From: a virus
Direction: 5' to 3' (one strand)
IMG/VR virus record: IMGVR_UViG_3300042514_000542
Location: 60,370-124,369 of that record
DNA length: 64,000 bases
The position numbers were made by a program, and so were the translations under genes. Numbering within the stretch: position 1 is the stretch's first letter; each line of letters starts with the position of its first letter. The notes under the pieces were generated by a model. That model ran no database searches and was not told where the DNA came from. It worked only from the letters and a program-made list of their open reading frames with translations. Shown piece by piece: positions 12,262 through 38,490 of the stretch.

Positions 12262-13032
12262 TCAAACATCCCACAGTCTAGCAAAGAATTCATCAAGTTC
12301 TTCTTTGGTTATCACGACCTTCTTACTAAAGATATAATCATTGATATCATTATAGTTAGTTAAGTTGAAGTTTTCACCATTAACATAAGACCACCATGAA
12401 CCATTCTTTTGTTGATCGGTGCATTCGGTAGCCCAATTATGTCCAATGTTGTGAAGCATTTCATGTTGATCGGCACGACCTTGACCATGTAGTTCTTTGG
12501 GTGAGAAGAATTGATTACAGAACATACTAAGACTATTACGTTCCCAATCCTTTACTCTCCATAGGAAGACATTGGCAACATCATCTTTAGGACATTGGAA
12601 TGCACGGGCATCAAAGATAGCAGGATTTGAATCTGCAAAATCCCAAACGTTGAAGAATTGTTGATAATTTTTAATTACCCAATTCTTATTAAAGTATGCT
12701 GTCATCATTGCAGCAGTAACACTTTCAATCTTATTCTGTCTACCACCAAACCATTGTTGTGTTTCAATGGTATCACTATCATCCAATACAAATGTCACTT
12801 CATCACTTTGAGCATATAAGGCTTTACATCCTTGCATTTGTTTTGCTACCTCTTTAGCAGACTCAAACATACAAGTAATAAGTGTTTGATCGAAAGGTCT
12901 TTGACAACCCTTTGTGAACTGACTAAAGCACTTGCCATCCACTCGTATAACTATAGGAATTTTAGGTAAGAAATAATTCTCACTTATAGATTCATATCGT
13001 TTTATTCTATCCCCCAAAGAGTCATTTTTCAT
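12262..13032 (-). CDS. Thg1-like protein (tRNA-His guanylyltransferase family, 3'-5' polymerase)
   Basis: RIKRYESISENYFLPKIPIVIRVDGKCFSQFTK...RPFD matches the Thg1/TLP N-terminal palm motifs; 256 aa. Confidence 0.55.
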   Translation of the reverse strand: MKNDSLGDRIKRYESISENYFLPKIPIVIRVDGKCFSQFTKGCQRPFDQTLITCMFESAKEVAKQMQGCKALYAQSDEVTFVLDDSDTIETQQWFGGRQNKIESVTAAMMTAYFNKNWVIKNYQQFFNVWDFADSNPAIFDARAFQCPKDDVANVFLWRVKDWERNSLSMFCNQFFSPKELHGQGRADQHEMLHNIGHNWATECTDQQKNGSWWSYVNGENFNLTNYNDINDYIFSKKVVITKEELDEFFARLWDV

Positions 13033-13972
13033 AATTCCATTTATATCCTTTATGTGTTTGTCTTTTCCCTTTACAACAAGCTACGATAGCTGATGGATCA
13101 AATCCAGTCGATTTGATGCTATCCCATGTTTTAATATGGTTATCATTTAAATCCTTTTGTTCAACTCTTATCCTGTTGTTTACGGGTGTGAAATTTATAT
13201 TATTATTCTTAAAGTAGTTTTTGATGCATTTTATAGGAACACCATATTTTTTGTAAAGCCTGTATATTGTATACTCTTCCGTTTTGAAATCTTTAACTAT
13301 ATCTAAATATTTTAAACTATGATCAATTGGTCCATCTTCATCAATTTTAGAATTTTTTAATTGTTTTATCTCCCACTTATGTTTGTATGATTCTACTGGA
13401 CAGTCACCAATATAATTTAAAAAATGTTTAGCAAATATTCGTTTGATATATATTCTGTTATTGGTGAAGTTGATCCATGATTTCCATTCCTGTAATTGCC
13501 CATTTAGAAACTCTAAACTATCTTTATCGAAGGAATCTGTGCATAATTTAATATATCCATGACTCTTATCTAATGAACCATCACCAACATACCATAACAG
13601 AATTATAGTGTTTGTCAACTCTAAATCTTTCGGAACTATTTTAAGTCCTTCTGGATACCACACCATTCTAAGGTTGTAGAATGTTATGCTGCTCTTAGTT
13701 CTTATGCTATAATTTATATATGTCTTCTTTGTTCTCTTATCGTAAATTTCTCTTCTGATCGGACCATCTTTATATCTGGGAGATACCAAGTCTTTAAGTT
13801 GATTCCATACATACTCCACATGATCTAAATTACTACTACCATACATGAAGCAAGAGCTTTTACCCTTTATAGATAAGCACCCATCACCTAATAAGCATCC
13901 TTGAATTACTTCTAATTCGTATTGTGTTAAATTTATTACACTCATACTATTATTTAGTGTAGAGTGTAACAC
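13022..13972 (-). CDS. LAGLIDADG homing endonuclease
   Basis: Two LAGLIDADG-type motifs (LLGDGCL..., LWYVGDGSL); overlaps the Thg1-like gene start by 11 nt. Confidence 0.6.
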   Translation of the reverse strand: MLHSTLNNSMSVINLTQYELEVIQGCLLGDGCLSIKGKSSCFMYGSSNLDHVEYVWNQLKDLVSPRYKDGPIRREIYDKRTKKTYINYSIRTKSSITFYNLRMVWYPEGLKIVPKDLELTNTIILLWYVGDGSLDKSHGYIKLCTDSFDKDSLEFLNGQLQEWKSWINFTNNRIYIKRIFAKHFLNYIGDCPVESYKHKWEIKQLKNSKIDEDGPIDHSLKYLDIVKDFKTEEYTIYRLYKKYGVPIKCIKNYFKNNNINFTPVNNRIRVEQKDLNDNHIKTWDSIKSTGFDPSAIVACCKGKRQTHKGYKWNYEK

Positions 13973-14297
13973 TTTTCACATTTGGACATAAGAAAGTTCC
14001 AGATATAAGAACGGGTCTGGACTCCGCATGAAAAAGACTCTTACTGTCTATGTGAATGGTGGCCGGGAATTCTCTGTATTATTGAACTTGTTTTCCTTGG
14101 CTCTTATAATGATCTTCCACCGGGACTTCCAGCAGTTATAAGACGGTTCTCAACAGCCGACCATTATATAGAATCAATAGTTGAAGGTAGTCATCAGCAC
14201 CCATCATTCGTCCCGATTTTACGGATCTTTTTAAACTCAGATGATATATACGAAGCTCCGAACTACCACTAAATATACCTAGTCTCAACTATTAAAA

Positions 14298-14648
14298 TTA
14301 TTCAGCCTCAGTGTAGGCACTTTCGATATTAGCTGGGCAAAGCTTAATCTTAGAAGGATCAAGATCCTTGAAGTATTTCAATGCCCTTGCTTCAAGACTT
14401 TCAAATGCCGCAAGAACCATAGCTTCACGTTCCAATACCTTTGGAAGTTGATATGATGGAGCCTTAGCACGGGCGATAGCAATATCAATACCAAGCTTCT
14501 TTTCAAAGCGATCCATCGTAGTGTTAAGAAGAGAGAATCCATAAAGGATTTCATCATTCTCACGAATTGCAACCGCAACACCGCGAGGTTGATTGGTTTG
14601 TGCGTTTCTAATATACTGCTTAATTACTGTTTGTTTTTCTGTTTTCAT
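14298..14648 (-). CDS. hypothetical protein
   Basis: 116-aa ORF. Confidence 0.5.
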   Translation of the reverse strand: MKTEKQTVIKQYIRNAQTNQPRGVAVAIRENDEILYGFSLLNTTMDRFEKKLGIDIAIARAKAPSYQLPKVLEREAMVLAAFESLEARALKYFKDLDPSKIKLCPANIESAYTEAE

Positions 14649-24008: not shown

Positions 24009-24030
24009 ATTATAGTTCGGTTTTAATTAG
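24009..24030 (-). promoter_or_regulatory. cassette motif copy (read through as C-terminal ..LIKTEL of the upstream gene)
   Basis: +strand ATTATAGTTCGGTTTTAATTAG. Confidence 0.6.
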
Positions 24031-24666
24031 CTTGTTTGGAATTACTTCCGAATGCATCCAGTGTGTATCAGTCGTAACATGATTTGGTCTTACCCATTTC
24101 GCCACATTACTTCCAAAGTTTTCATATGCAAATCCATCGGCATTGCGAACTACGTATCCTTCATGCACCTTACGATCCCTATTCATAAAGTCTTCAATAT
24201 ATACTGAAACATTACCGGGACTTCTTTCATCCCATAGAAAAGGCTTGGCTATAATAGGAACATGTTCAATACCCAACAACTGACAGAACTCTACAGTATC
24301 TTTCCAAGACAAGCAATAGTTAGTTTCATCCCAAATGGAGAAACAGTAGAAGTATGATTTAAGATCATCATAACCAATGGAATGTTTAGCGTAAAGATTC
24401 TCACCACACACTCTCCATCCTTCTGGAATGTCATTCTTAATAGATGCATGAAATTGTTTGATCCATGAACGTGATGGATGATCTTTACTATCCAATGAAC
24501 GAGCATGATAATGATCATTATATAGAGTGGAATTTTCACCATCCATCTTTTCGGTGATAATCATTGACTTACCATTGAAGCATGAAGTATCCTTAAGAAT
24601 TTTATCATCAGAAGTCGCTCCCGGCGACCAGTTAAGGTGCTTTGTTCGTGGATACTTAATTTTCAT
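24010..24666 (-). CDS. RNA ligase family protein (nucleotidyltransferase motif I KxDG)
   Basis: 218 aa; N-terminal KYPRTKHL and MIITEKMDGEN match the RNA_ligase (Rnl2/PF09414-like) family. Confidence 0.5.
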   Translation of the reverse strand: MKIKYPRTKHLNWSPGATSDDKILKDTSCFNGKSMIITEKMDGENSTLYNDHYHARSLDSKDHPSRSWIKQFHASIKNDIPEGWRVCGENLYAKHSIGYDDLKSYFYCFSIWDETNYCLSWKDTVEFCQLLGIEHVPIIAKPFLWDERSPGNVSVYIEDFMNRDRKVHEGYVVRNADGFAYENFGSNVAKWVRPNHVTTDTHWMHSEVIPNKLIKTEL

Positions 24667-26346: not shown

Positions 26347-27009
26347 TCAAGACGTTCTTTGATGGTCTAAAATTTGTATGGATTTTGTTGACATCACATC
26401 TTCAATTTCGGAAAAACTCCAGACACTATTCTTATAGTCCCAACCAACATCCAATCCTTTTTGATATTGTGCATCTGGTTTACGACCTTTATCTTGTAGG
26501 TGGGAATGTCCAGATAATTGCCAAGCCCCACGATTATCCTTGTGCCAAATCCTTAGAGGAAAGTGGTTCATAACAATAATCTGCGTTCCTATCATAATCT
26601 CTTGATGATTTCCTATGAAGGTAAGATTCTTATACTTCAATGGGTAAATCTCCACATCGACAATACCGTATTGTTCTACTATCTGTTCCTTATAAATCCT
26701 ATACATGTTGGATTCATGATTCCCCCACATGACATAAATATTCTTACAATTAAGTCTATCGATCCAACCATTACATTGACCATCGGTAGCATTTAGGAAA
26801 AAATCTCCAAGGAACCACAATGTATCATCCTCACCAACAGTATCATTAATCTCCCTAAGAGTTTGTTCTGCTGCTTCCTCTGCATTATTATATCCACGCA
26901 TTTCCCAAATAGGGGAAGTCCAAGTTTTTGGATCGTGGAAAACATGCCAATCACTACTCCAATAGTGTTTGTTCCTCTGGTCGTATGGGAATTTCAGTAT
27001 TTTGTGCAT
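26347..27009 (-). CDS. metallophosphoesterase (calcineurin-like)
   Basis: 220 aa with GDFF, GNHE and GHSH motifs. Confidence 0.6.
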   Translation of the reverse strand: MHKILKFPYDQRNKHYWSSDWHVFHDPKTWTSPIWEMRGYNNAEEAAEQTLREINDTVGEDDTLWFLGDFFLNATDGQCNGWIDRLNCKNIYVMWGNHESNMYRIYKEQIVEQYGIVDVEIYPLKYKNLTFIGNHQEIMIGTQIIVMNHFPLRIWHKDNRGAWQLSGHSHLQDKGRKPDAQYQKGLDVGWDYKNSVWSFSEIEDVMSTKSIQILDHQRTS

Positions 27010-27253: not shown

Positions 27254-27425
27254 CCTGATCTTCTAATTCCTCTTCTGTTATATCAGATAAATCAATACAT
27301 TTTCTATACATATCTATCAACCTTTGTGTTACCTCAAAGTATTCTTCAAAATATTTATTGTTAATATATAGAGACTTCATTTTAGTAAGCTCTCCAAATC
27401 TAGGTATAAGTTCATCCTTTTTCAT
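27240..27425 (-). CDS. hypothetical protein
   Basis: 61-aa ORF. Confidence 0.4.
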   Translation of the reverse strand: MKKDELIPRFGELTKMKSLYINNKYFEEYFEVTQRLIDMYRKCIDLSDITEEELEDQDGYQ

Positions 27426-27871
27426 AGCAGTTGTCCAATACGTTGTGAAATGATCTTGTTATCAATACTACCATTAGATAGCTCCAATGCCCTCTTAATG
27501 GCTTTACCCATGTCTTTCTTAGATGTAGCACCAACATCAGCGATAGCTGTTACAATGATATTCTCAACCTCTGCTTCGGTCAATGGTGCTGGTAGGTATT
27601 CATTAAGAATCTCAATCTCATCTTTTTCAATTTTGATAAGATCATCTCTCATAGAGCTTACATAAAGCTTCATTGCATCTTCTCTTGTAGAGACAGCTTT
27701 ACGAACAATACCAAGAATCTCCAATTCACTAACTGGTTCATCAATATTACCCTTAGCCAACGAAGCATTGGTTATAGAATTTTTCAATGCACGAAGAACA
27801 TTCAACCTAGTTGTGTCCTTATCACGCATTGCCTGTTTTAGATCTGTATTTATTTTATCAATCATACTCAA
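27422..27871 (-). CDS. GatB/YqeY-domain protein
   Basis: 149 aa matching the YqeY-like family. Confidence 0.55.
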   Translation of the reverse strand: MSMIDKINTDLKQAMRDKDTTRLNVLRALKNSITNASLAKGNIDEPVSELEILGIVRKAVSTREDAMKLYVSSMRDDLIKIEKDEIEILNEYLPAPLTEAEVENIIVTAIADVGATSKKDMGKAIKRALELSNGSIDNKIISQRIGQLL

Positions 27872-29890: not shown

Positions 29891-30171
29891 TAGTATGATT
29901 GTATTTCGGTTTTAATTATTCTTTCTATAACCCACTGTTGATATTGATATCCATCTTTTTGCGGATCATACAAATCATCATTATCAATACAATTCCATGT
30001 GTCTCCGACACGAATAGGAGTAAAACTTAAAAGATCGTTATATGTGTAAGTTAGACCATCACATAAGTTATTTGCGCATGAATACCTATCGGAAGATTCA
30101 TATATACGAATATTCTTTGGAATGTCCGATAACACTATACCGTATACCTTTTCGTGTTCATCCCATGTCAT
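29890..30171 (-). CDS. hypothetical protein
   Basis: 93-aa ORF. Confidence 0.45.
   Translation of the reverse strand: MTWDEHEKVYGIVLSDIPKNIRIYESSDRYSCANNLCDGLTYTYNDLLSFTPIRVGDTWNCIDNDDLYDPQKDGYQYQQWVIERIIKTEIQSY
29898..29919 (-). promoter_or_regulatory. cassette motif copy
   Basis: +strand ATTGTATTTCGGTTTTAATTAT. Confidence 0.6.
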
Positions 30172-31250
30172 AAGTCTAATAGTTGTTCCATTGCCACTTT
30201 CACAAGTTTATCTTCAACCACTCTATCATCAAGTAGACAGAATGCCAATGATGTTTGCCAAGCCTTGAATCTACCAGTGATATATAGTGCCTGTTCCTTA
30301 CGGGTTTCCAAAAGCTTAATATGATTCTTAAGTTCGTATTCTATAATATTGAGAGTATGAACATACTTACCATAAGATTCTGTGACCTTACCGATAAAGT
30401 CCTTACACTTCTCCGCAATTTCGAAATCAAGTGTCGTTTCGATGTAATTATAGAATTCCTTCTCTTCTACAAACTTAGGTGAAGCCAAGAACACATCAAG
30501 AACTTGCTTGATGCCTTTGATACCAGTAGCAAGCTTGTGGAGTTCACAGTATTCATCTGCCTTGATCTTCTTTAATGTTTGACCATCAGGTGAATATAAC
30601 ACTACGCCTTCTTTACCAGTCCATGCTGCAACATCAAGGATACATTCTTCGACAGAATTATATTCATACTTTTCAGGACGATTAACTCCAAACATTTTAG
30701 ATGAACCATCCAATGCGGCTTGATTTGCATATCTCATTGTGCGGTGTCCCACAATACCAACCAAAGTTAAAGTAGGTTCATCATGTTCACGAAGAACAAT
30801 AATGTTTGAAGGAGTGGTCCATTCAAATAACAATGATGATATCCCAGCATCCAACCAATTATTATCAAATGCCTTTGGATACTTCTTTATAAGAAGATCA
30901 ATCTCATGACCATTAGCCATTTGACGAGCATCAACAGTTCCACGGGTTCTTATGATAAGTTCCCCTTTATACTTTGAAACGATTAATAAACTTCCGTCTA
31001 ATTTATGTCGCGCTTCGATCTTCCATGAGTTGTCCCAAGGTTGAAAATCAGGACGCTCACCAAAGTTAGTGAACTTGGCAAAACCTTGTGATACTACAAA
31101 GTTATCAGACTTACGAACAATACAAGAACGGAATCGTGCATTGTCATCAAACCACTTCGTAGCCATATCGACAGGGTTGATCAACCAACATTCATCTCCT
31201 GCTATGGTGCAGTCTTTGAATTTGAATTGTTCTGGATCGGGTAACTTCAT
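30168..31250 (-). CDS. rnlA: RNA ligase 1 (T4 RnlA-like)
   Basis: 360 aa; motif I HKLDGSL (T4 Rnl1 KEDGSL); size matches Rnl1. Confidence 0.55.
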   Translation of the reverse strand: MKLPDPEQFKFKDCTIAGDECWLINPVDMATKWFDDNARFRSCIVRKSDNFVVSQGFAKFTNFGERPDFQPWDNSWKIEARHKLDGSLLIVSKYKGELIIRTRGTVDARQMANGHEIDLLIKKYPKAFDNNWLDAGISSLLFEWTTPSNIIVLREHDEPTLTLVGIVGHRTMRYANQAALDGSSKMFGVNRPEKYEYNSVEECILDVAAWTGKEGVVLYSPDGQTLKKIKADEYCELHKLATGIKGIKQVLDVFLASPKFVEEKEFYNYIETTLDFEIAEKCKDFIGKVTESYGKYVHTLNIIEYELKNHIKLLETRKEQALYITGRFKAWQTSLAFCLLDDRVVEDKLVKVAMEQLLDL

Positions 31251-32467: not shown

Positions 32468-32468
32468 A

Positions 32469-32717: not shown

Positions 32718-32892
32718 ATTTTGTATTGTTAAATGTCTTTCCAGATCAAGCCTTTTCTGAATTTCGTAATTAGTTCTTTTTCCTTAGCTGTCATTACTCT
32801 CTTCTTACTCTTGAATCGAGTAGTCATAGAATCCTTCACAAGACTCTTGGTGTTCATGTGAAAGGTTTTACCCATTGTGTAATATTGTGGCA

Positions 32893-33306: not shown

Positions 33307-33310
33307 ATTA

Positions 33311-33748
33311 TTATTTCTTAATTTCTATCATTTTAGGCCAATCTGGAAATACCGAATTGTTTTTTCCGTTCGCCACTGTTAAATGTAATCCTCTATAGTT
33401 TTCACCATCAACAATACCTAATTTCTTTTTCATCTGATCAAGGTCTTCAGAAAAGACCTTGAGGTAATACATAAGGAATCCTTTACGATAACCACCTTCA
33501 ATCAAGTAAGGATCATAAGTAAATTCAAACTCTTTCTTATCATACCACATAGCCTTTTTCCAGTTGACTTTGGTATGATGTTTTTGTGAGAAGATTGTAA
33601 TGTGACTTCCATGCCTGGGAGTTCCCATACGAATCCAATAGTGAGTTGAAATAAACCAATAGTAAAGCTTAACGAAATCAGGCGACACATCAAGGACGAT
33701 ACGACCTTTGTGTGGCTCAACTGAAATTTTCCCAATAGCGGTTAACAT
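33311..33748 (-). CDS. 2H phosphoesterase (LigT/cyclic phosphodiesterase-like)
   Basis: Two H-x-T-x motifs (GSHITIF, GLHLTVA) typical of the 2H superfamily. Confidence 0.5.
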   Translation of the reverse strand: MLTAIGKISVEPHKGRIVLDVSPDFVKLYYWFISTHYWIRMGTPRHGSHITIFSQKHHTKVNWKKAMWYDKKEFEFTYDPYLIEGGYRKGFLMYYLKVFSEDLDQMKKKLGIVDGENYRGLHLTVANGKNNSVFPDWPKMIEIKK

Positions 33749-33754
33749 AGGGTT

Positions 33755-33776
33755 AGTGTATTTCGGTTTTAATTAA
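33755..33776 (-). promoter_or_regulatory. cassette motif copy
   Basis: +strand AGTGTATTTCGGTTTTAATTAA. Confidence 0.6.
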
Positions 33777-34485
33777 TTCTTTCTTTAGCTATGTTAAAAT
33801 ACTCTTCGGATATCTCACTACCTATAAAGTTCATATTCATTTCTTTAGCAACTTTTCCAGTAGTTCCAGTTCCCATGAATGGGTCATATACAGTATCACC
33901 ATCAGCACCAAATCTGCGAAGTATTCTTTCAACTAATTGTTCTGGAAATGTTGCCCCATGTCCTTTGATTCTTTTACCTCTGGGTATTTCCCAAATATTA
34001 GGTTCAGTTCCACGACCAAAGTTACATTTAGAAAACATTCTACTTATAGCCTTCTCTTCGTCTTCAAATATTAGAAGTAATTCTGTTCTACTATTTAAAA
34101 CATTGGATTGCATTGCGGGTTGACCATGACCCTTATCCCAAACTATAATGTCTTTTAAGTTATCGGAAAAGTCTCCAATCATCTTAAAAAATGCTCTCTT
34201 ACTTCCAGTGACAATTTGAATATTGTAAAAAACAATATCACCAACCCTTATAAGTTCCTTTAGGATAGAACTGTGTAATTCATAAAATTCTTCAATTGGT
34301 AGGTTATCAGAAAATCCATTATACTTTGTTGAGAATTCTTTAGTTACCTGTCTTGAGCAATACTTACCATTCATAATACGAAGATTCATATTGTATGGTG
34401 GTGAAGTTACAACAATATCTATAGACTTGTCATCCATTCTAGATAAAGTATCTAGACAACTCTCATTATGTAGTATGGTCAACAT
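33769..34485 (-). CDS. DNA methyltransferase (N6-adenine/N4-cytosine, beta-class)
   Basis: DIVVTSPPY motif IV; 238 aa. Confidence 0.6.
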   Translation of the reverse strand: MLTILHNESCLDTLSRMDDKSIDIVVTSPPYNMNLRIMNGKYCSRQVTKEFSTKYNGFSDNLPIEEFYELHSSILKELIRVGDIVFYNIQIVTGSKRAFFKMIGDFSDNLKDIIVWDKGHGQPAMQSNVLNSRTELLLIFEDEEKAISRMFSKCNFGRGTEPNIWEIPRGKRIKGHGATFPEQLVERILRRFGADGDTVYDPFMGTGTTGKVAKEMNMNFIGSEISEEYFNIAKERIN

Positions 34486-34491
34486 GATCTT

Positions 34492-34513
34492 ATTATATTT
34501 CGGTTTTAATTAA
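34492..34513 (-). promoter_or_regulatory. cassette motif copy
   Basis: +strand ATTATATTTCGGTTTTAATTAA. Confidence 0.6.
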
Positions 34514-35157
34514 TTCTTTGTTGTTAAAGGTGTCAGTCCACTCAATCCTGTTACAGTGTCTATTAAAAACACTTCACCATTTCTGGGATTTTTATATCTC
34601 TCGAAATCCTTTACAGACCATCCCAAGAGATACATTAAATAAAGCTTGTTAAACTCTCCGTGAGCTACCACAATATTGTGTTCATACTTACTAGTAGCTA
34701 GAATATGTTGATGGAACAATACTGCGCGTTGGTAACAGTCGGCAAACGACTCACCACCAGAAGGACGGTAATAGAAATTGAAATGTGATTCTGTTTTATT
34801 TCCCATTTCAACAATATCCCTAAGATTACCCCATTCTCTTTCACGTATCAGGGGCAATTCTTCAAATTTATTAATTTGATAGTTTTGATAACCCGTGATC
34901 CTACCATGTAGGATATTTGCTGTTTGGTATGCCCTCTTATAAGAACTATGATATAAATTAAAATTACATCTGGGTTCTCTAGGTGGATTGTCTGATTTAG
35001 CGTCATGTTCAACCAAACTCATAATATCATCAGCCGCATTAATAGCATCATCCTTTCCTCGTTCAGCCAATTCAATATCACAATCTAGATTTCTAAAATA
35101 TTCAGATTTATCGATATTCCCCTTCGACAATCCGTGTCTAACTAAGTAAATTTTCAT
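34510..35157 (-). CDS. histidine phosphatase superfamily protein (phosphoglycerate-mutase-like)
   Basis: N-terminal LVRHGLSKGN (RHG catalytic motif); 215 aa. Confidence 0.55.
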   Translation of the reverse strand: MKIYLVRHGLSKGNIDKSEYFRNLDCDIELAERGKDDAINAADDIMSLVEHDAKSDNPPREPRCNFNLYHSSYKRAYQTANILHGRITGYQNYQINKFEELPLIREREWGNLRDIVEMGNKTESHFNFYYRPSGGESFADCYQRAVLFHQHILATSKYEHNIVVAHGEFNKLYLMYLLGWSVKDFERYKNPRNGEVFLIDTVTGLSGLTPLTTKN

Positions 35158-35160
35158 ATT

Positions 35161-35616
35161 CTATTCCTTAAAGTATGCATCAGTGATCACTTCATTTTTA
35201 TCATAATCAATCACTAACATAGGTGATCCATCGTATCTCACATCATCCCTCAATTGAAGACCCCACTTATAAGTCATACAAAGTGTCATGATATCTATTG
35301 CAAAGAACTTACCAATCAAATCTTTTAGATCAACTTCAGGAAGATCCCACTCGAAACTATGCATGTTGAAGAATGGTTGATCCCTACCATCGAGAGGATC
35401 GTTATCATCAAATATATTAGGATATTCCTCTAACCACACATATGTAGAGGAAGAATTTAATTCCGTTTTTCTAACAGTATATTGTTGACCCGGAACTAGT
35501 TTCTTAGCATCTTCGTTAACGTTAATAAACCAACTTCTAGTAGGCTCTATAAATGTTATCTTCTGCCCTACTTTTGGTAGACCATGTAATATTTTTCTGT
35601 CATTAAACATGCTCAT
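35161..35616 (-). CDS. hypothetical protein
   Basis: 151-aa ORF. Confidence 0.5.
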   Translation of the reverse strand: MSMFNDRKILHGLPKVGQKITFIEPTRSWFINVNEDAKKLVPGQQYTVRKTELNSSSTYVWLEEYPNIFDDNDPLDGRDQPFFNMHSFEWDLPEVDLKDLIGKFFAIDIMTLCMTYKWGLQLRDDVRYDGSPMLVIDYDKNEVITDAYFKE

Positions 35617-36029
35617 AATAGTGGTAGATGGTCTGTTAGACCATCGAATTTGCTCGATTCATGTGGCCCGATTGCAATTGCCGTCTTAGTCTTAACTCCA
35701 TTAAATTCAGTCGCACCGTTGTCGATAATCATATGGGATATTAACCCATTGTCAAGAGCCTTTTGGTGAAGTTCGTCAAGTTCTTGTTCACTGTTGACAT
35801 AGACACAGATTTTACGAAATGAGTTTTTCAACCAATGGTCTATTTCATCGACATGTTTAGATTCTAAGTCTTGATAAAAGTAGTCATCCCTATACACATG
35901 TTGATAATCGTAGTCAACCCGACCACCTTTTGTTAAGAATGACATTGATGCATGACTCGATTGGGCGCACATCTTCCCCTTCCTCATGTTGAGGTCTTTT
36001 CGGATTACTATAACCTGTTTAGTATTCAT
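35613..36029 (-). CDS. peptidyl-tRNA hydrolase PTH2-like
   Basis: RKGKMCAQSSHAS and AIAIGPHE match PTH2 motifs (GKGKIAAQCSHA, AIGPGP). Confidence 0.6.
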   Translation of the reverse strand: MNTKQVIVIRKDLNMRKGKMCAQSSHASMSFLTKGGRVDYDYQHVYRDDYFYQDLESKHVDEIDHWLKNSFRKICVYVNSEQELDELHQKALDNGLISHMIIDNGATEFNGVKTKTAIAIGPHESSKFDGLTDHLPLL

Positions 36030-36370
36030 ATTTCGTTATTAGTGAACCAATTTTCCAGTGTTAGAAATGATATATTTTCTAATGATATATCACAACTAAA
36101 CTCTTTAGTGAGAAAAGTAAAATAAGGACTTATGTTGTGAGTTTTCACATACTCGTCATATTTTACACGAAACCCATTAAAATCATCGTTCAAAATGGTT
36201 GGTTGGTTATCTTTAAACCATGTATTATATTCATCATATGATTTCTTAGAATCTTCATATAATTGCAAAAAATCATACTCTGCCTTTTCCAAGGATTCAT
36301 AGGTAAATGGATATGTGTTCACACCACAATACTCTTCATCGCTATAATACTCTGTTAATACTAATTTCAT
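36026..36370 (-). CDS. hypothetical protein
   Basis: 114-aa ORF. Confidence 0.5.
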   Translation of the reverse strand: MKLVLTEYYSDEEYCGVNTYPFTYESLEKAEYDFLQLYEDSKKSYDEYNTWFKDNQPTILNDDFNGFRVKYDEYVKTHNISPYFTFLTKEFSCDISLENISFLTLENWFTNNEI

Positions 36371-37050
36371 TACTTACAAGTGTAGATTCTCGACGGAACA
36401 TGTCCCCCTTGAAATGTCCCCCAAGGGACTGTCATTGCATCGCCTGTTACGTCCGAAAACTTAGCCATTTTAGGATACCACATCTTATCAGTAATTTTAT
36501 CAACCTTGTCCTTATGGACAAAGATGTGATATCCACCACGGGTTTCCGTTACATCACAGTAGCCACCGCAAAGTTCAATACATGTTTGAAGAGTTTCATC
36601 GTTTTTATCGTCAACATCAAACATGATATACTTTCGTTCACCTACGGACTTTTGGATTTCACTCATTACCTCTTGATGTGGATTAGAATTCTTCCCACCA
36701 CATTCTAGAACAGTAGCAAGCTTGCCAATACTACGCACAGTAGCCTTCCACAGATCCCTTGGACTGATACTGATGTAACATGCCAAAGACTCTTGTGGAA
36801 CGTCTCTACCATCCAATTTATAAGCACCAACCCTGCATTGCATTTGATCGATCTTATCGAAGATATACTCCTTCTTGGAAGTCTTTCTACATAGTTGCCC
36901 TTTGTCGCTTTTAATCCACGGCATTTCGGGGCAATACTTCTTCCTACAAAATAGAGTAAGATAGTATTGTTCGGTTTCCTTACAATCGGGTAGCCATTCA
37001 ATAAACTCTCTCAACTTTTGCTCGTCTTTGATGATTTCGTAATGTTTCAT
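36370..37050 (-). CDS. hypothetical protein, possible AEP-type primase-polymerase fold
   Basis: 226 aa; MFDVDDKND (DxD) and TRGGYHIFV (sGxGxHhh-like) resemble AEP motifs I/II; weak. Confidence 0.35.
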   Translation of the reverse strand: MKHYEIIKDEQKLREFIEWLPDCKETEQYYLTLFCRKKYCPEMPWIKSDKGQLCRKTSKKEYIFDKIDQMQCRVGAYKLDGRDVPQESLACYISISPRDLWKATVRSIGKLATVLECGGKNSNPHQEVMSEIQKSVGERKYIMFDVDDKNDETLQTCIELCGGYCDVTETRGGYHIFVHKDKVDKITDKMWYPKMAKFSDVTGDAMTVPWGTFQGGHVPSRIYTCK

Positions 37051-37056
37051 GTTGTG

Positions 37057-37078
37057 ATTATACTTCGGTTTTAATTAA
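37057..37078 (-). promoter_or_regulatory. cassette motif copy
   Basis: +strand ATTATACTTCGGTTTTAATTAA. Confidence 0.6.
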
Positions 37079-38490
37079 CTCTCTTCCTCCATATCGGCTT
37101 CGTTATTATCCCTCGCAGCGGATTCCTTAATAACAAATTTAGGTGATTTGAATTTTAATGCGGTTCTCTTGGGATTGTTTTCAATTCTAAGAACAATACC
37201 CTCATTAACAACACCAGTGGTGCAAAGTTCACAATCCTTATCAAGATGAGCCTCCTTAAGTTTTGCCAAGAAATTATCATTCCAATCTTTATCCATAGGG
37301 ATATCATCAGCAAACATATCTCTAGCCAATCCAGTATAATATACTGGAACTGTTTTCAATCCAAGATCATGACAAAATTCCTCAATCTCATACCATTCCA
37401 ATTCGTAGATTTTACCTTCAGGTAGGTTACAAGTAATTCTATATACTCGGAATTCGCATTCACCTTTAGCTACACCGTAATCATAACCCTTTTGGATGGT
37501 CGCACCACCGGAGGTATATCCCACAATTTCACCATACACAGTATAACGTTCTGGAATTTCACCCTCAAGTTCTGCTGCAATAACACCCCATACATCATCA
37601 GTATAGTTCCCATCGCGTCTATTCTTAAGAACACTACGACTAGAGTATACGAACTTATATTCCGTGTCTGGAATATTAAGTCCAAGATTGGGTACATAAT
37701 ATCCGATCTTATTAAGAATAGGTCTAGTGATGCTGAATGGTTTCTTACAAAGAATGTTCGCAAAGATCGCAGACGTTCCATGCATCTTAGAAGATACCGT
37801 AATAAAATCATCAGGATTAACTAAGAAGATATTCCTACCAAGATGTTCAGTCTTATAATGAAATGCGAATTGACCATCAACAAGTTGAGATTTGATACCT
37901 TCGGCCTTTCTATTGAACCATGCATTAATAGGCTTATATAGTTTAACACGAATAGGTCTTGGCATGACACCAATGGTTTTCTCAACCCATTTTGGAACAC
38001 GGCTCTTTTTCTCATTAGCTTCACCGCTATTTCTAGCATCACCCTTAACGTATTTCTTGGCTAGAACATCTTCACCAACAGTATCAAAGATATCACCAAG
38101 TTTAAAGGTGTCTTCATCTACTTCATAATATTTTGCTAGTTCGGATACTTTGAATAGGAATCCTTGGGATGGAATGGATCTTAGGCCAATAGCCTTAACA
38201 CGACCATGCTTACCGAAAAATCCCTTGGTTTTTCCATCAGCATTAAGTTCGGCGTTATCTCTAAGATTTGCCCAAGATAGGAACTTAAGAGAAATGGCAC
38301 ATTCTACTGGAAAGTAGACCACAAGATCACCTTCGTTATAAGAACCTTTTCCAATGATAATAGTATTACCAAAGACTTCCACCAAAGAAAGTCTATCTGC
38401 GTTGGGGTGATCCTTAATAACAGGAACCTTTACGACAGTTGGTAGGTAGTTGGGATCTGCACCCTCGCTAATAGTTAATTTTGCTTTCAT
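37075..38490 (-). CDS. rnlB: RNA ligase 2-like enzyme fused to an N-terminal tRNA-binding (Myf/EMAP-II/Trbp111-type) OB domain
   Basis: N-terminus HPNADRLSLVEVFGNTIIIG resembles tRNA-binding domains; KMHGTSAIF matches T4 Rnl2 motif I KIHGTN; 471 aa. Confidence 0.55.
   Translation of the reverse strand: MKAKLTISEGADPNYLPTVVKVPVIKDHPNADRLSLVEVFGNTIIIGKGSYNEGDLVVYFPVECAISLKFLSWANLRDNAELNADGKTKGFFGKHGRVKAIGLRSIPSQGFLFKVSELAKYYEVDEDTFKLGDIFDTVGEDVLAKKYVKGDARNSGEANEKKSRVPKWVEKTIGVMPRPIRVKLYKPINAWFNRKAEGIKSQLVDGQFAFHYKTEHLGRNIFLVNPDDFITVSSKMHGTSAIFANILCKKPFSITRPILNKIGYYVPNLGLNIPDTEYKFVYSSRSVLKNRRDGNYTDDVWGVIAAELEGEIPERYTVYGEIVGYTSGGATIQKGYDYGVAKGECEFRVYRITCNLPEGKIYELEWYEIEEFCHDLGLKTVPVYYTGLARDMFADDIPMDKDWNDNFLAKLKEAHLDKDCELCTTGVVNEGIVLRIENNPKRTALKFKSPKFVIKESAARDNNEADMEEES

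What the first reader, a model, noticed from the sequence alone, without database searches (positions are those of the whole stretch)
12262..38490. Unusually complete tRNA/RNA repair toolkit
The window holds eight relevant genes:
- Rnl1-like ligase (30168-31250)
- Rnl2-like ligase with tRNA-binding domain (37075-38490)
- a third small KxDG ligase (24010-24666)
- Pnk-like kinase without phosphatase domain (32893-33306)
- 2H cyclic phosphodiesterase (33311-33748)
- histidine phosphatase (34510-35157)
- Thg1-like 3'-5' polymerase (12262-13032)
- PTH2-like peptidyl-tRNA hydrolase (35613-36029)

T4 uses only Pnk + Rnl1 to reverse anticodon-nuclease (PrrC) cleavage. This phage appears equipped to heal 2',3'-cyclic-phosphate and 5'-OH ends, to rebuild damaged tRNA 5' ends and to release stalled peptidyl-tRNA. 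That would be a broad counter-defence against tRNA-targeting toxins such as PrrC, RloC, colicin-like nucleases and VapC-type cleavage.
Basis: partly seen in the sequence, partly recalled or inferred. Interest (0 to 1): 0.7.

Follow-up and report, generated by a model that had tools for sequence, protein, structure and literature searches.

The report
Phage RNA-repair gene set, plus tRNA-mimic RNAs
An uncultured T4-like phage really does carry three RNA ligases, an RNA end-kinase, several phosphate-removing enzymes, a tRNA 5'-end rebuilder and a peptidyl-tRNA hydrolase; such expanded RNA-repair sets are already described for large phages, but this one also has a Ro-like protein followed by an unannotated array of tRNA-mimicking small RNAs.

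Summary
Observation confirmed. All eight ORFs exist at the stated coordinates on the minus strand. Seven pass Pfam's curated thresholds. The eighth ("2H") has two invariant HxT motifs and a confident model whose top 19 PDB matches are all 2H enzymes.

Corrections:
- Thg1 is a bacterial-type Thg1-like protein.
- The 2H protein is a new subfamily. Its nearest structure is the anti-CBASS nuclease Acb1, so its substrate is open.

- two metallophosphoesterases, one a frequent Rnl1 neighbour
- a cREC cyclic-phosphate domain
- a YqeY/GatB-like protein
- a Ro-like protein (9639-11297)
- a tandem array of structured small RNAs (about 8292-9526), some with tRNA-like T-arm, acceptor-hairpin and D-arm modules, conserved in 6 of 6 related loci

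Interpretation partly supported. The enzymes are loosely but recurrently linked in relatives, which fits RNA end-healing, sealing and tRNA rescue. RNA substrates and the counter-defence role are inferred, not shown. "Unusually complete" is overstated: Iyer et al. 2021 list nearly every component for large phages.

Verdict: a new member of a known kind, of modest interest. The RNA array is the most original element.

The parts
37075..38490 (-). Rnl5-type ATP-dependent RNA ligase: N-terminal OB module, an insert of about 110 aa, then a nucleotidyltransferase domain. It has no Rnl2-type C-terminal domain.
   Evidence: - Pfam PHA02142 OB-fold plus RNA_ligase.
- NCBIfam TIGR02306 (DRB0094 family) matches the N-domain, 4.6e-10, below the equivalog cut-off.
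- Family profile against the PDB: NgrRnl N-domain 1.5e-5; T4 Rnl2 NTase 6.7e-5.
- K234, E320, E429-G430 and K445/K447 are invariant.
35613..36029 (-). PTH2-type peptidyl-tRNA hydrolase
   Evidence: - Pfam PTH2, 105.6 bits (cut-off 23).
- NCBIfam TIGR00283, 91.9 bits (cut-off 82).
- 4-nt overlaps with both neighbouring ORFs.
- Found near the 2H gene in 11 of 53 related loci.
34510..35157 (-). Branch-1 histidine phosphatase. Substrate unknown; candidate 2'- or 3'-phosphomonoesterase.
   Evidence: - Pfam His_Phos_1, 75.4 bits.
- RHG motif at residues 7-9.
- Only sub-threshold NCBIfam matches (CobC-like, 44 bits).
- Within 10 kb of the 2H gene in 31 of 53 loci, including distant L062/L063.
33311..33748 (-). 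2H-superfamily phosphoesterase of a previously unannotated subfamily (about 145 aa)
   Evidence: - No Pfam or NCBIfam hit.
- 53 homologs, all unannotated.
- H48, T50 and H121 invariant; T123 nearly so.
- Model pLDDT 88.5.
- In the BFVD viral library the best hits are uncharacterised phage proteins.
32893..33306 (-). Stand-alone P-loop kinase of the polynucleotide 5'-kinase clade, with no phosphatase domain
   Evidence: - Pfam AAA_33, 28.6 bits.
- phrog_505 polynucleotide kinase, 8.6e-8.
- Family profile against the PDB: Pnkp1, CthPnkp kinase and T4 Pnk are the top full-length hits.
- Invariant GK, ADD aspartate and ENRHGG.NVH lid.
- Starts 4 nt after the 2H stop.
- Abuts 2H also in L006, L012, L013 and L058.
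30168..31250 (-). Rnl1-family RNA ligase (distant from T4 Rnl1)
   Evidence: - Pfam RNA_lig_T4_1, 46.5 bits.
- phrog_562, 6.5e-34 over residues 32-356.
- T4 Rnl1 structures 2c5u/9do4 at E 2.4e-4, with motifs I, IV and V aligned.
- At most 30% identity to any cultured phage.
26347..27009 (-). Calcineurin-like metallophosphoesterase 1.
   Evidence: - Pfam Metallophos, 29.9 bits.
- phrog_547 phosphoesterase, 5.7e-31.
- Lies 0.3-2 kb from Rnl1 in L003-L006 and L010.
- Within 10 kb of 2H in 38 of 53 loci, and adjacent to it in the most distant pair, L059/L060.
24010..24666 (-). Minimal (nucleotidyltransferase-only) ligase of the RNA_ligase/PF09414 superfamily
   Evidence: - Pfam, 112.9 bits.
- About 2,000 cluster representatives; stand-alone forms of about 215 aa are common.
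- Some relatives are fused to HNH.
- Motif I is KMDGEN.
- Best PDB profile hits are weak: 3qwu 2e-4, NgrRnl 8e-3.
- RNA versus DNA substrate is not resolved.
12262..13032 (-). Bacterial-type Thg1-like protein (TLP), a 3'-5' nucleotidyltransferase
   Evidence: - Pfam Thg1, 105.3 bits.
- Best PDB match is the B. thuringiensis TLP 4kgk, 9e-40, against eukaryotic Thg1 at 1e-10 or weaker; RVDG and SDE retained.
- Conserved in three related contigs; in the two where both genes were located it lies about 17-18 kb from the core.
   Evidence: - Pfam cREC_REC, 54.2 bits (cut-off 27).
- Overlaps by 14 nt the start of the downstream metallophosphoesterase gene.
45105..45839 (-). Calcineurin-like metallophosphoesterase 2, paired with cREC
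   Evidence: - Pfam Metallophos, 33.1 bits.
- phrog_1649 metallo-phosphoesterase, 3.3e-16.
27422..27871 (-). YqeY/GatB-C-terminal-like protein (a putative tRNA-binding fold) inside the cluster
   Evidence: - Pfam YqeY, 125.5 bits.
- phrog_1460 'tRNA amidotransferase'.
- Conserved near Rnl1 and 2H in 11 loci and in L013.
9639..11297 (-). Ro-like / DUF2828 / vWFA 'RNA-binding protein'
   Evidence: - Pfam DUF7788, 41.3 bits.
- phrog_850 'RNA-binding protein', 9e-32.
- 510 phage records hold homologs; the mycobacteriophage ones are annotated 'Ro-like RNA binding protein'.
- Pfam's TROVE model did not match at E <= 0.01.
8292..9526 (-). Tandem array of at least 6 structured small-RNA units (11 motif copies).

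Each unit has:
- a 6-8 bp terminal stem
- a CAGCA(A/U)N motif
- a variable payload
- a UGA(U/A)A tail

Three payloads are tRNA-like modules in the order T-arm, 7-bp closed acceptor-like hairpin, D-arm, with T-arms starting at 8905, 8782 and 8373.
   Evidence: - Not called by ARAGORN or by Rfam at gathering scores.
- 6 stem-closed units against 0.6 expected.
- 3 strict T-AS-D modules against 0.04 expected.
- 7 of the window's 11 CAGCAAAT copies lie here.
- Terminal stem: 100% of 54 cells paired, 6 of 7 pairs with double changes, 0 of 500 shuffles as high.
- The same units follow the homologous gene in L065/L190, L191, L192, L193 and the cultured Leptolyngbya phage Lbo-JY46.
28655..29890 (-). 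PARP-like ADP-ribosyltransferase next to Rnl1; its membership of the toolkit is uncertain
   Evidence: - Pfam PARP, 88.1 bits, with weak WGR and PARP_reg matches.
- H-Y-E triad aligned to human PARP1.
- Adjacent to Rnl1 only in close relatives.

Best explanation
The window comes from an uncultured T4-like myovirus of about 207 kb. Its early or accessory region carries a loosely clustered set of genes for repairing broken RNA ends and rescuing tRNA.

**Proposed mechanism** (inferred from the known chemistry of each family)
1. [quoted passage not shown]
2. The stand-alone Pnk-clade kinase phosphorylates the 5'-OH.
3. The 3' end is healed by one or more phosphoesterases encoded nearby, rather than by a fused T4-type HAD phosphatase:
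   - The 2H enzyme would open the cyclic phosphate to a 2'-phosphate, as in the yeast/plant Trl1 route.
   - The calcineurin-like metallophosphoesterase would act like the phosphatase module of bacterial Pnkp.
   - The cREC protein, or the histidine phosphatase acting as a monoesterase, are further candidates.
4. Rnl1 seals breaks in loops. The Rnl5-type ligase seals nicks in duplex regions. The minimal ligase has an unknown preference.
5. The Thg1-like protein refills 5'-truncated acceptor stems using the 3' strand as template.
6. PTH2 releases peptides from damaged or stalled peptidyl-tRNA.

A Ro-like protein with its array of Y-RNA-like, tRNA-mimicking small RNAs lies in the same window, next to the Thg1-like gene. 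It probably adds an RNA quality-control or scaffolding arm, as Ro60 and Y RNAs do in bacterial RNA-repair operons.

**Shown here**
- the family identity of each protein and intact catalytic motifs
- recurrent genomic linkage in relatives
- the conserved secondary structure of the small RNAs and their linkage to the Ro-like gene

**Inferred**
- RNA as the substrate
- the division of labour among the enzymes
- the order of the steps
- the counter-defence purpose
For: **Family identities**

**Gene packing**
- 22 same-strand genes with gaps of -56 to +69 nt.

**Synteny**
- The full set is kept in order in L001 and L013.
- Around 2H in 53 loci: metallophosphoesterase 38, Rnl1 32, histidine phosphatase 31, kinase 21, large ligase 17, PTH2 11. 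All are on the same strand, even though gene order differs between sub-lineages.
- 2H and the kinase directly abut in five independent loci. This mirrors the fused kinase-CPD healing domains of Trl1 (PMC10946426 abstract).

**Published framework**
- 2H opens the 2',3'-cyclic phosphate to a 2'-phosphate before ligation. RNA ligases, Pnk, 2H, cRec, calcineurin-like enzymes, Thg1, PTH2 and TROVE proteins are described as the RNA-repair complement of large phages (PMC7824862 section 3.4.9; PMC9503650 section 3.7.3).

**Thg1-like protein**
- It is closest to the bacterial TLP clade, the clade associated with 5'-end repair.

**Ro-like protein and RNA array**
- Ro60 and Y RNA sit in the Salmonella rsr-yrlBA-rtcBA RNA-repair operon (PMC7790460). 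Phage Ro60 homologs bind phage Y-like RNAs (PMC12135203).
Against: - No enzyme's substrate was or could be tested here.
- The 2H protein's nearest solved structure is Acb1, an anti-CBASS cyclic-oligonucleotide nuclease.
- The kinase is marginal in Pfam. Its Walker A reads GAGKD instead of GKS/T in this phage, JGI pipelines call relatives 'uridine kinase', and its P-loop also matches nicotinamide riboside kinase.
- The histidine phosphatase is generic, and the published lists do not include this family.
- The linkage could partly reflect inherited gene order in one phage lineage rather than selection. The kinase is absent from the 10-kb neighbourhood of 2H in 32 of 53 loci. Thg1 is 17 kb away.
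- No KptA/Tpt1 or Macro domain was found among the ORFs scanned to remove a 2'-phosphate.
- The window has no canonical tRNA gene.
- The promoter and terminator scans show no enrichment and do not define an operon.
Confidence: 0.6

Rival explanations
1. Part of the set serves nucleotide-signal and NAD+ counter-defence rather than RNA repair.
- The 2H protein would be an Acb1-like degrader of host cyclic-oligonucleotide immune signals, or a hydrolase of ADP-ribose 1'',2''-cyclic phosphate.
- The histidine phosphatase, metallophosphoesterases and cREC would process the resulting phosphorylated nucleotides.
- The small kinase would be a nucleoside kinase (for example a nicotinamide riboside kinase) feeding the NAMPT / PRPP-synthetase NAD+ salvage genes in the same window.
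- The PARP-like enzyme would consume NAD+.
For: - NAMPT (15425-16924) and PRPP synthetase (18253-19173) are in the window.
- A PARP with an intact H-Y-E triad sits next to Rnl1.
- In the distant loci L062/L063, the 2H homolog lies within 2.6-6.5 kb of a histidine phosphatase, NAMPT and PRPP synthetase.
- The kinase profile also hits nicotinamide riboside kinase (6e-4) over the P-loop.
- Relatives are auto-named 'uridine kinase'.
- Iyer et al. discuss 2H and calcineurin-like enzymes as counter-signalling enzymes as well (PMC7824862 section 3.4.8).
Against: - The Acb1 match is barely better than the RNA cyclic phosphodiesterase matches (7.2 against 6.2-6.5). In the viral library Acb1 reaches only E 8.5e-3, so the protein is not a member of the Acb1 sequence family.
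- The kinase's only full-length PDB matches are polynucleotide kinases.
- 2H is linked more often to Rnl1 (32 of 53) and the kinase (21 of 53) than to NAMPT (3 of 53).
- This reading does not account for three ligases, Thg1 and PTH2.
Confidence: 0.2
2. The enzymes mainly process or maintain the phage's own small RNAs rather than repair host tRNAs. The tRNA-like modules of the array have 7-bp acceptor-like hairpins followed by NCA. After RNase P-type cleavage they would give two-piece tRNA mimics, whose ends need kinase, phosphoesterase, ligase, Thg1-like and CCA-type activities.
For: - The array exists, is conserved, and lies about 3 kb from the Thg1-like gene. In L066/L067 a unit lies about 500 nt after Thg1.
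- M. smegmatis YrlA, which has a 7-bp acceptor stem, is cut by RNase P and receives CCA in vivo (PMC4201824).
- The window has no canonical tRNA genes.
- In FelixO1-like phages the homologous protein gene precedes a normal array of 19 tRNAs.
Against: - There is no evidence that the RNAs are cleaved or ligated.
- The core repair cluster is 17-30 kb from the array.
- Many phages have similar enzyme sets without such arrays (PMC7824862).
- The modules lack a convincing anticodon loop: U33 is absent in most.
Confidence: 0.1
3. The co-location has no shared function. These are independently acquired accessory genes sitting in a hypervariable early region, and some ligases act on DNA, for example on nicks with ribonucleotides or in DNA repair alongside the DNA ligase and PARP.
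For: - The region is full of mobile DNA: four LAGLIDADG endonuclease genes and a fractured DNA ligase with a split intein.
- The DNA methylase and SPFH genes lie inside the cluster here but are mostly absent from it in relatives.
- The order of the repair genes differs between sub-lineages.
- The substrates of the minimal ligase and the Rnl5-type ligase are unverified.
- PARP/WGR proteins are DNA-break sensors in eukaryotes.
Against: - The same families stay within 10 kb of each other despite rearrangement.
- The combination matches experimentally reconstituted RNA healing-and-sealing systems family by family: T4 Pnkp+Rnl1, bacterial Pnkp/Hen1 and Trl1.
- Thg1-like protein, PTH2 and YqeY have no DNA role.
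Confidence: 0.1

Closest known systems
RNA-repair / ribosome-rescue gene complements of jumbo and T4-sized phages (Iyer, Anantharaman, Krishnan, Burroughs & Aravind 2021, Viruses 13:63, section 3.4.9; Iyer et al. 2022, Viruses 14:1977, section 3.7.3)
   Same: - Multiple non-redundant ATP-dependent RNA ligases in one genome.
- Pnk kinase.
- 2H, cRec and calcineurin-like phosphoesterases.
- Thg1, PTH2 and a TROVE-like RNA-binding protein.
- NAD+ salvage genes nearby.
- The same proposed purpose: undoing tRNA cleavage by host effectors.
   Different: - The genome is an uncultured T4-like phage with no close GenBank relative.
- One ligase is Rnl5-type, whereas the survey sorts most phage ATP-dependent ligases into the Rnl1 and Rnl2 families.
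- The 2H protein is a separate, unannotated subfamily.
- A histidine phosphatase is linked, and the survey does not list this family.
- No KptA, Macro, RlaP or CCA-adding enzyme was found among the window ORFs scanned.
- The Ro-like gene is followed by a long array of small RNAs.
T4 Pnkp + Rnl1 tRNA repair (reversal of PrrC anticodon-nuclease damage)
   Same: - An Rnl1-family ligase with conserved motifs I, IV and V.
- A Pnk-clade 5'-kinase.
- T4-like phage background: rIIA/rIIB and a tail sheath in the window.
   Different: - The kinase lacks the fused DxDxT (HAD) 3'-phosphatase, so 3'-end healing must come from separate enzymes.
- Rnl1 is only distantly related (E 2.4e-4 to the T4 Rnl1 structure).
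- Many additional components are present.
Fungal/plant tRNA ligase Trl1 (ligase + GTP-dependent kinase + 2H cyclic phosphodiesterase)
   Same: - The same three chemistries: sealing ligase, Pnk-clade kinase and 2H enzyme.
- The kinase and 2H genes abut, as the KIN and CPD domains do in Trl1.
   Different: - The proteins are separate, not one polypeptide.
- No Tpt1/KptA was found to remove the 2'-phosphate that this route leaves.
- It is unknown whether this Rnl1 needs a 2'-phosphate.
- The 2H protein is not shown to act on RNA.
Naegleria gruberi / Deinococcus radiodurans RNA ligases (Rnl5 family)
   Same: - N-terminal OB module plus nucleotidyltransferase domain, with no C-terminal domain.
   Different: - 19% sequence identity.
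- An extra segment of about 110 aa between the two domains, partly disordered in the model (residues 151-160 have pLDDT below 50).
- Motif I reads KxHG, as in T4 Rnl2.
Bacterial and phage Ro60-Y RNA (YrlA) ribonucleoproteins (Chen et al. 2014, RNA 20:1715; Thermus phage phiLo phiRo60-Yrl1/2, NAR 2025 gkaf470)
   Same: - An RNA-binding protein with a vWA-like C-terminal region. Homologs are annotated Ro-like.
- The gene lies next to small RNAs whose 5' and 3' ends pair in a stem.
- The effector module mimics tRNA in the order (V)-T-acceptor hairpin-D.
- The acceptor-like stem is 7 bp, as in M. smegmatis YrlA.
   Different: - Pfam's TROVE model does not match this protein.
- The RNAs form a tandem array of 6-11 units, not one or two genes.
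- The conserved motif is CAGCAAAU next to the stem plus a UGAUAA tail, not the GNCGAA bulge.
- Many units carry no tRNA-like module at all.
- No binding has been shown.

Membership tests
Rnl1 (T4 RnlA) RNA ligase family - ORF 30168-31250 | Covalent nucleotidyltransferase motifs I (KxDG), IV (EGxx) and V (xKxK) in Rnl1 spacing | tested here: met
   KLDGS, EGVV and KKIK align to T4 Rnl1 K99, E227 and K240/K242.
Rnl1 (T4 RnlA) RNA ligase family - ORF 30168-31250 | Profile match above curated thresholds | tested here: inconclusive
   Pfam RNA_lig_T4_1 scores 46.5 against a cut-off of 28.3, so it is met. The NCBIfam equivalog TIGR02308 scores 48.9 against a cut-off of 242, so it is not met. The protein is a family member, not an ortholog.
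Rnl1 (T4 RnlA) RNA ligase family - ORF 30168-31250 | C-terminal domain that gives T4 Rnl1 its tRNA specificity | tested here: inconclusive
   PHROG 562 aligns through residue 356, but the alignment to the T4 structure ends at residue 248.
Rnl5 (NgrRnl/DraRnl) RNA ligase family - ORF 37075-38490 | N-terminal OB module fused to a nucleotidyltransferase domain, with no C-terminal appendage | tested here: met
   [not shown]
Rnl5 (NgrRnl/DraRnl) RNA ligase family - ORF 37075-38490 | Sealing of 3'-OH/5'-PO4 nicks in duplex RNA | not testable with these tools
   Biochemical property.
Rnl2 (T4 Rnl2 / RNA-editing ligase) family - ORFs 37075-38490 and 24010-24666 | Rnl2-type C-terminal domain after the nucleotidyltransferase domain | tested here: not met
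   The large ligase ends with the NTase domain, and its match to T4 Rnl2 covers the NTase only. The small ligase is 218 aa and NTase-only.
Polynucleotide 5'-kinase (Pnk) clade - ORF 32893-33306 | Walker A GxxxxGK[S/T] | tested here: inconclusive
   The Gly and Lys are invariant in the family. This protein and its two closest relatives have GAGKD, while most others have GKS/T.
Polynucleotide 5'-kinase (Pnk) clade - ORF 32893-33306 | General-base Asp after strand 2 and an Arg-containing lid | tested here: met
   The Asp of the ADD motif and R108-H109 of ENRHGG are invariant. They align with the D35 region of T4 and C. thermocellum Pnk.
Polynucleotide 5'-kinase (Pnk) clade - ORF 32893-33306 | Closest solved relatives are polynucleotide kinases rather than nucleoside or nucleotide kinases | tested here: met
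   4xrp at 4e-6, 4gp7 at 2e-5 and 1ly1 at 8e-5 align over most of the length. NRK1 and adenylate kinases match the P-loop only.
2H phosphoesterase superfamily - ORF 33311-33748 | Two HxT/S motifs | tested here: met
   H48-I-T50 and H121-L-T123. H48, T50 and H121 are invariant across 30 sequences.
2H phosphoesterase superfamily - ORF 33311-33748 | 2H fold | tested here: met
   [not shown]
RNA 2',3'-cyclic phosphodiesterase (ThpR/LigT, Trl1-CPD) function - ORF 33311-33748 | Hydrolysis of RNA 2',3'-cyclic phosphate ends | not testable with these tools
   Only neighbourhood evidence is available.
Acb1 anti-CBASS nuclease family - ORF 33311-33748 | Sequence or structure membership in the Acb1 family | tested here: inconclusive
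   [not shown]
Histidine phosphatase superfamily, branch 1 - ORF 34510-35157 | RHG catalytic motif and a profile match above the cut-off | tested here: met
   The N-terminus reads MKIYLVRHG. Pfam scores 75.4 against a cut-off of 21.7. No NCBIfam equivalog is reached.
Thg1 / Thg1-like protein (TLP) family - ORF 12262-13032 | Thg1 palm domain with catalytic carboxylates; closer to bacterial TLPs than to eukaryotic tRNA-His guanylyltransferases | tested here: met
   Pfam 105.3 bits. 4kgk (BtTLP) at 9e-40, against 3wbz at 1e-10 and human 3otb at 4.5e-5. RVDG and SDE are aligned.
PTH2 peptidyl-tRNA hydrolase - ORF 35613-36029 | Profile match above curated thresholds | tested here: met
   Pfam 105.6 against a cut-off of 23. 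TIGR00283 91.9 against a cut-off of 82.
cREC domain - ORF 45826-46365 | Profile match above the curated threshold | tested here: met
   PF20274 scores 54.2 against a cut-off of 27.
KptA/Tpt1 RNA 2'-phosphotransferase | Presence of a KptA-family gene to complete the 2H route | tested here: not met
   No PTS_2-RNA hit in any of the 68 window ORFs scanned against Pfam. The small ORFs, the unknown ORFs and the remaining roughly 140 kb of the genome were not examined.
Ro60/TROVE family - ORF 9639-11297 | TROVE (HEAT-repeat ring) domain | tested here: not met
   Pfam's TROVE model gave no match at E <= 0.01; only DUF7788 matched. No structure prediction was run.
Ro60/TROVE family - ORF 9639-11297 | Homology to phage proteins called Ro-like, and an adjacent Y-like RNA gene | tested here: met
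   Full-length tblastn matches to mycobacteriophage 'Ro-like RNA binding protein' genes, E down to 4e-15. That name is an annotation, not an assay. The RNA array lies immediately downstream in 6 of 6 loci.
YrlA-type Y RNA - array 8292-9526 | Stem formed by the RNA's 5' and 3' ends | tested here: met
   100% of 54 cells paired, 6 of 7 pairs with compensatory changes, 0 of 500 shuffles as high, slid controls 21-38%.
YrlA-type Y RNA - array 8292-9526 | tRNA-like module in the order (V)-T arm-acceptor-like hairpin-D arm | tested here: met
   Three strict modules in the window against 0.04 expected. Homologous modules occur in L065, L066, L191 and L192, with different but pairing acceptor stems.
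YrlA-type Y RNA - array 8292-9526 | Conserved GNCGAA(N)G Ro-binding motif | tested here: inconclusive
   Two copies lie in the array (9376, 8487), which is not above the minus-strand background. The conserved motif is CAGCAAAU instead.

The most novel reading that the evidence does not exclude
The Ro-like protein and its tandem array of Y-RNA-like units form a new phage ribonucleoprotein system. Three units carry tRNA mimics with 7-bp acceptor-like hairpins followed by NCA.

The neighbouring enzymes would work on these RNAs directly: host RNase P, the Thg1-like polymerase, the stand-alone kinase, the phosphoesterases and the three ligases. For example, they could cut, rebuild and re-seal the RNAs into two-piece or permuted tRNA-like molecules. 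Those molecules would serve as decoys or sponges for host tRNA-targeting nucleases, or as scaffolds that bring damaged tRNAs to the repair enzymes.

In this reading the 'toolkit' is a biosynthetic and scaffolded machine rather than a loose set of repair enzymes.
Probability: 0.1. Interest if true: 0.8.

Novelty: new member of a known kind. Interest (0 to 1): 0.4.

Why it matters
If the inferred functions hold, this lineage of abundant uncultured T4-like phages repairs RNA by a route different from the T4 textbook case. It would use a kinase with no fused phosphatase together with separate 2H, metallo-, cREC and histidine phosphoesterases, and three ligases of different families.

That offers a natural set of small, separable enzymes for working out which 3'-end chemistry each ligase accepts. 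It also shows how phages cope with the growing list of tRNA-cleaving defence systems.

The practical gains are modest, because the concept is already in the literature. The new items are:
- an unannotated 2H subfamily whose substrate (RNA ends or immune signalling nucleotides) is directly testable
- a recurrent histidine-phosphatase partner
- a compact Rnl5-type phage ligase
- a conserved small-RNA family that current tRNA and Rfam scanners do not detect, lying next to Ro-like genes, including in a cultured Leptolyngbya phage where it could be studied

Tried and rejected
1. A megablast of the 12-kb core against GenBank phages found nothing, so no annotated near relative exists.
2. Direct phmmer searches of the two PF09414 ligases, the kinase and metallophosphoesterase 1 against the PDB gave nothing useful. 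Family profiles were needed.
3. PHROG and Pfam scans of the conserved unknown ORFs in the cluster (u226 36370-37050, u151 35161-35616, u114, u178, u93, u82) gave no hits. Their roles stay unknown.
4. The promoter and terminator scan of 23000-39200 showed no enrichment over shuffles, so it was not used to define operons.
5. I considered whether the small ligase is a fragment created by the upstream LAGLIDADG gene. Rejected: stand-alone forms of about 215 aa are common in the family.
6. I considered a "circularly permuted or split tRNA genes" reading of the 8200-9640 region.
   - The 3'-half-then-5'-half order is real.
   - However, the modules lack convincing anticodon loops.
   - The order matches the published YrlA design, so this reading is kept only as a low-probability novel case.
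7. I considered a "tRNA genes with long anticodon-loop introns" reading. ARAGORN's relaxed calls were structurally poor, and one "intron" contained two other T-arms. Rejected.
8. I considered whether CAGCAAAT plus TGATAA is a general promoter. Rejected: the motif is confined to the array.
9. A collection-wide DNA pattern scan for the RNA unit returned 120 chance hits, with no arrays and no protein homolog. It was replaced by protein-anchored loci.
10. Rfam at gathering thresholds, and at E <= 1 around the array, gave no meaningful family.
11. The Burroughs & Aravind 2016 NAR paper could not be retrieved.

Full report
**1. What the window is**

GC content is about 35% and nearly all genes are on the minus strand. 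The window carries the following:
- a tail-sheath gene (60382-62691)
- rIIA (21048-22976) and rIIB (19260-20273)
- ThyX
- an ATP-dependent DNA ligase
- NAMPT and PRPP synthetase
- several LAGLIDADG homing endonucleases

The sheath is most similar to those of T4-like Pseudomonas phages, cyanophages and a Pelagibacter phage. No GenBank phage matches at the DNA level. Identical proteins sit on a 206,590-bp metagenomic contig, and related IMG/VR contigs are 124-212 kb. This is an uncultured, distant T4-like myovirus.

**2.

All eight ORFs exist as described, and seven pass Pfam's curated cut-offs.

The eighth ORF, 33311-33748, has no database family. Other evidence places it in the 2H superfamily:
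- It belongs to a tight family of 53 unannotated proteins of about 145 aa.
- H48 and T50 are invariant, H121 is invariant and T123 nearly so.

The kinase is marginal in Pfam (28.6 against a cut-off of 27). A profile of its family has its best full-length matches in the PDB to Capnocytophaga Pnkp1, C. thermocellum Pnkp kinase and T4 Pnk. The general-base Asp and the lid motif are invariant.

Ligase motifs I, IV and V are intact in all three ligases. The histidine phosphatase has RHG. The Thg1-like protein keeps its catalytic carboxylates.

**3. Corrections to the parts list**

- *Thg1.* It is a bacterial-type TLP (BtTLP at 9e-40). This clade is known for templated repair of tRNA 5' ends rather than G-1 addition (established knowledge).
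- *Small ligase.* It is a complete member of a large family of NTase-only ligases, some fused to HNH. Its substrate is open.
- *2H protein.* It is neither a recognisable ThpR/LigT nor a recognisable Acb1. Acb1 is its nearest solved structure by a small margin. In the viral structure library its nearest neighbours are uncharacterised.

**4.

- Metallophosphoesterase 1 (26347-27009) is a frequent neighbour of Rnl1 and 2H in relatives. Bacterial Pnkp uses this enzyme class as its 2',3'-phosphatase (PMC3675462 abstract).
- A cREC "cyclic-phosphate-processing receiver" protein (45826-46365) overlaps the start of metallophosphoesterase 2 (45105-45839).
- A YqeY/GatB-like protein (27422-27871) sits inside the cluster.
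- Further phosphatase-like ORFs lie at 42172-42717, 43488-44072 and 49204-50277.
- No KptA, Macro, RlaP, CCA-adding enzyme or RtcB was seen among the ORFs scanned.

**5. Linkage**

From the large ligase to metallophosphoesterase 1 there are 22 minus-strand genes separated by -56 to +69 nt. The closest relative (L001) and a more distant one (L013) keep the same order.

Within 10 kb of the 2H gene, on the same strand, the 53 2H-anchored loci contain:

| Gene | Loci (of 53) |
|---|---|
| metallophosphoesterase | 38 |
| Rnl1 | 32 |
| histidine phosphatase | 31 |
| kinase | 21 |
| large ligase | 17 |
| PTH2 | 11 |

These counts hold although gene order differs between sub-lineages. 2H and the kinase abut in five loci. 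The DNA methylase and SPFH genes inside the cluster here are mostly absent from the cluster in relatives, so they are not part of the set.

Thg1 is conserved in three related contigs. Its distance from the core could be measured in two of them, and there it is about 17-18 kb.

Many of these loci belong to one phage lineage, so the linkage is suggestive, not proof of joint function. The promoter and terminator scans were uninformative.

**6. Mechanism**

The best-supported reading is RNA end-healing and sealing plus tRNA rescue, as set out under "best explanation".

The distinctive point is how the 3' end is healed. It is not done by a T4-type fused HAD phosphatase but by separate enzymes. The abutting 2H and kinase genes recall the CPD and KIN domains of Trl1. 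The 2H route leaves a 2'-phosphate (PMC9503650), and no KptA was found to remove it. The histidine phosphatase, a metallophosphoesterase or a host enzyme would have to do so. Alternatively, the metallophosphoesterase or cREC route yields a clean 2',3'-diol directly. All of this is inference.

The main rival reading assigns the 2H protein, the phosphatases and perhaps the kinase to counter-signalling or NAD+/ADP-ribose metabolism. It rests on the Acb1 resemblance and on the NAMPT, PRPP-synthetase and PARP genes in the window.

**7. An unexpected RNA component**

*Where it is.* Downstream of the 552-aa DUF7788/DUF2828 protein (9639-11297) lies 1.4 kb without long ORFs. Homologs of this protein in mycobacteriophages are annotated "Ro-like RNA binding protein".

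*What the stretch contains.* ARAGORN and Rfam call nothing there, yet the minus strand contains:
- canonical T-arms and D-arms
- 7 of the window's 11 CAGCAAAT copies
- six units with the signature terminal stem / CAGCAWN / payload / complementary strand / TGAWA, against 0.6 expected

*The tRNA-like payloads.* Three payloads are tRNA-like modules in the order T-arm, 7-bp closed acceptor-like hairpin (followed by NCA), D-arm. That is 3 observed against 0.04 expected. Four of five such modules, counting relatives, are closed by a stem at the anticodon-stem position.

*Covariation.* Across 8 short units from three phages, the terminal stem pairs in 100% of 54 cells. Six of its 7 pairs show compensatory changes, and none of 500 shuffles reaches the observed score.

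*Conservation.* The same units follow the homologous gene in every locus examined:
- L065/L190
- L191
- L192
- L193
- the cultured Leptolyngbya phage Lbo-JY46, where the protein is 44% identical and four units start 9 nt after the stop codon

In L066/L067 a unit lies about 500 nt after Thg1. In FelixO1-like phages the homologous gene is instead followed by 19 ordinary tRNA genes.

*What it resembles.* The architecture matches YrlA-type Y RNAs, which sit next to Ro60 genes in bacteria and phages (PMC4201824). Phage Ro60-Y-like RNPs have since been reconstituted (PMC12135203). There are three differences here:
- the long tandem array
- the CAGCAAAU and UGAUAA motifs in place of the GNCGAA bulge
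- the absence of a Pfam TROVE match

No protein-RNA binding is shown.

**8. Novelty and score**

Expanded RNA-repair sets in large phages, component by component, are already published as comparative-genomic predictions (PMC7824862, PMC9503650). Thg1-like genes occur in 164 GenBank phage records. The finding is therefore a new member of a known kind.

The original elements are:
- the unannotated 2H subfamily
- the histidine-phosphatase linkage
- an Rnl5-type ligase in this context
- the Ro-like-associated small-RNA array, a new variant of the Ro/Y-RNA theme that standard scanners do not detect

Interest: 0.4.

Noticed in passing
window 8292-9526 (minus strand); also L065 12116-13012, L066 9203-9322, L068 5662-5955, L190-L193 about 4750-5800: There is a tandem array of structured small-RNA units downstream of the Ro-like/DUF2828 gene. 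Some units carry tRNA-like T-arm / acceptor-hairpin / D-arm modules. ARAGORN and Rfam do not detect them. The array is conserved in 6 of 6 loci with a homolog, including a cultured Leptolyngbya phage.
   Followed up: yes
window 28655-29890 (-), 15425-16924 (-), 18253-19173 (-): A eukaryote-like PARP has weak WGR and regulatory-domain matches and an intact H-Y-E triad. It lies one small ORF away from Rnl1, in a window that also encodes NAMPT and a PRPP synthetase (NAD+ salvage). It could be an NAD+-dependent partner of RNA repair, analogous to KptA, or an unrelated host-modifying enzyme. The adjacency is seen only in close relatives.
   Followed up: partly
window 39046-41506 (-): The ATP-dependent DNA ligase is a 'fractured gene' in three pieces:
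- N-extein plus intein N-part (40817-41506)
- a free-standing endonuclease ORF with DUF7487/Vsr-like motifs (39884-40777)
- a separate ORF starting with an intein C-part (MKIVKIEKLEDFYDRYDIEVEDNHNFYANDILV...) fused to the ligase C-part (39046-39897)

The relative L013 has an uninterrupted 368-aa ligase.
   Followed up: partly
window 13022-13972 (-), 25025-25834 (-), 16978-17766 (+), 44087-45100 (+): Four LAGLIDADG homing-endonuclease genes lie in 32 kb, two of them on the opposite strand to nearly all other genes. One overlaps the start of the Thg1-like gene by 11 nt. No group I intron was detected by Rfam.
   Followed up: no
window 32893-33306 (-), residues 9-16: The kinase's Walker A reads GCSGAGKD, with Asp where Ser/Thr normally coordinates Mg2+. 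Only the two closest relatives share this. One nearby relative has Lys-Asn and the rest have Lys-Ser/Thr.
   Followed up: no
window 33769-34485 (-) and 31496-32467 (-): An N6/N4 DNA methyltransferase and an SPFH/Band-7 protein sit inside the repair cluster here but are mostly absent from it in relatives. They look like later insertions. A perfect 12/12 sigma-70 consensus promoter (32699-32671, minus strand) lies just upstream of the SPFH gene.
   Followed up: partly
window 36370-37050 (-), 35161-35616 (-), 36026-36370 (-), 28114-28650 (-): Several ORFs within the cluster have no Pfam or PHROG match but are conserved. u226 and u151 each recur in 11 related loci, and u151 is translationally coupled to PTH2. 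These are candidates for missing functions such as 2'-phosphate removal.
   Followed up: partly
window 42172-42717 (-), 43488-44072 (-), 49204-50277 (-): There are three more phosphatase-like ORFs:
- a phrog_335 'phosphatase'
- a weak NIF/HAD-like protein with an LDYDEC motif
- an HTH-plus-metallophosphoesterase protein

The window is unusually rich in phosphoesterases.
   Followed up: no
proteins P0151, P0188, P0192, P0194, P0195, P0197: In several relatives the Rnl5-type ligase occurs as separate OB-only (about 281-324 aa) and NTase-only (259 aa) proteins. This suggests the gene is split in those genomes, perhaps by mobile elements or a frameshift.
   Followed up: no
L011 (Klebsiella phage K64-1, 13146-13553 of NC_027399): A distant homolog (25% identity) of the 2H protein in a 346-kb jumbo phage lies within 5 kb of genes for a tRNA nucleotidyltransferase, a Nudix hydrolase and a macro-domain protein.
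   Followed up: no
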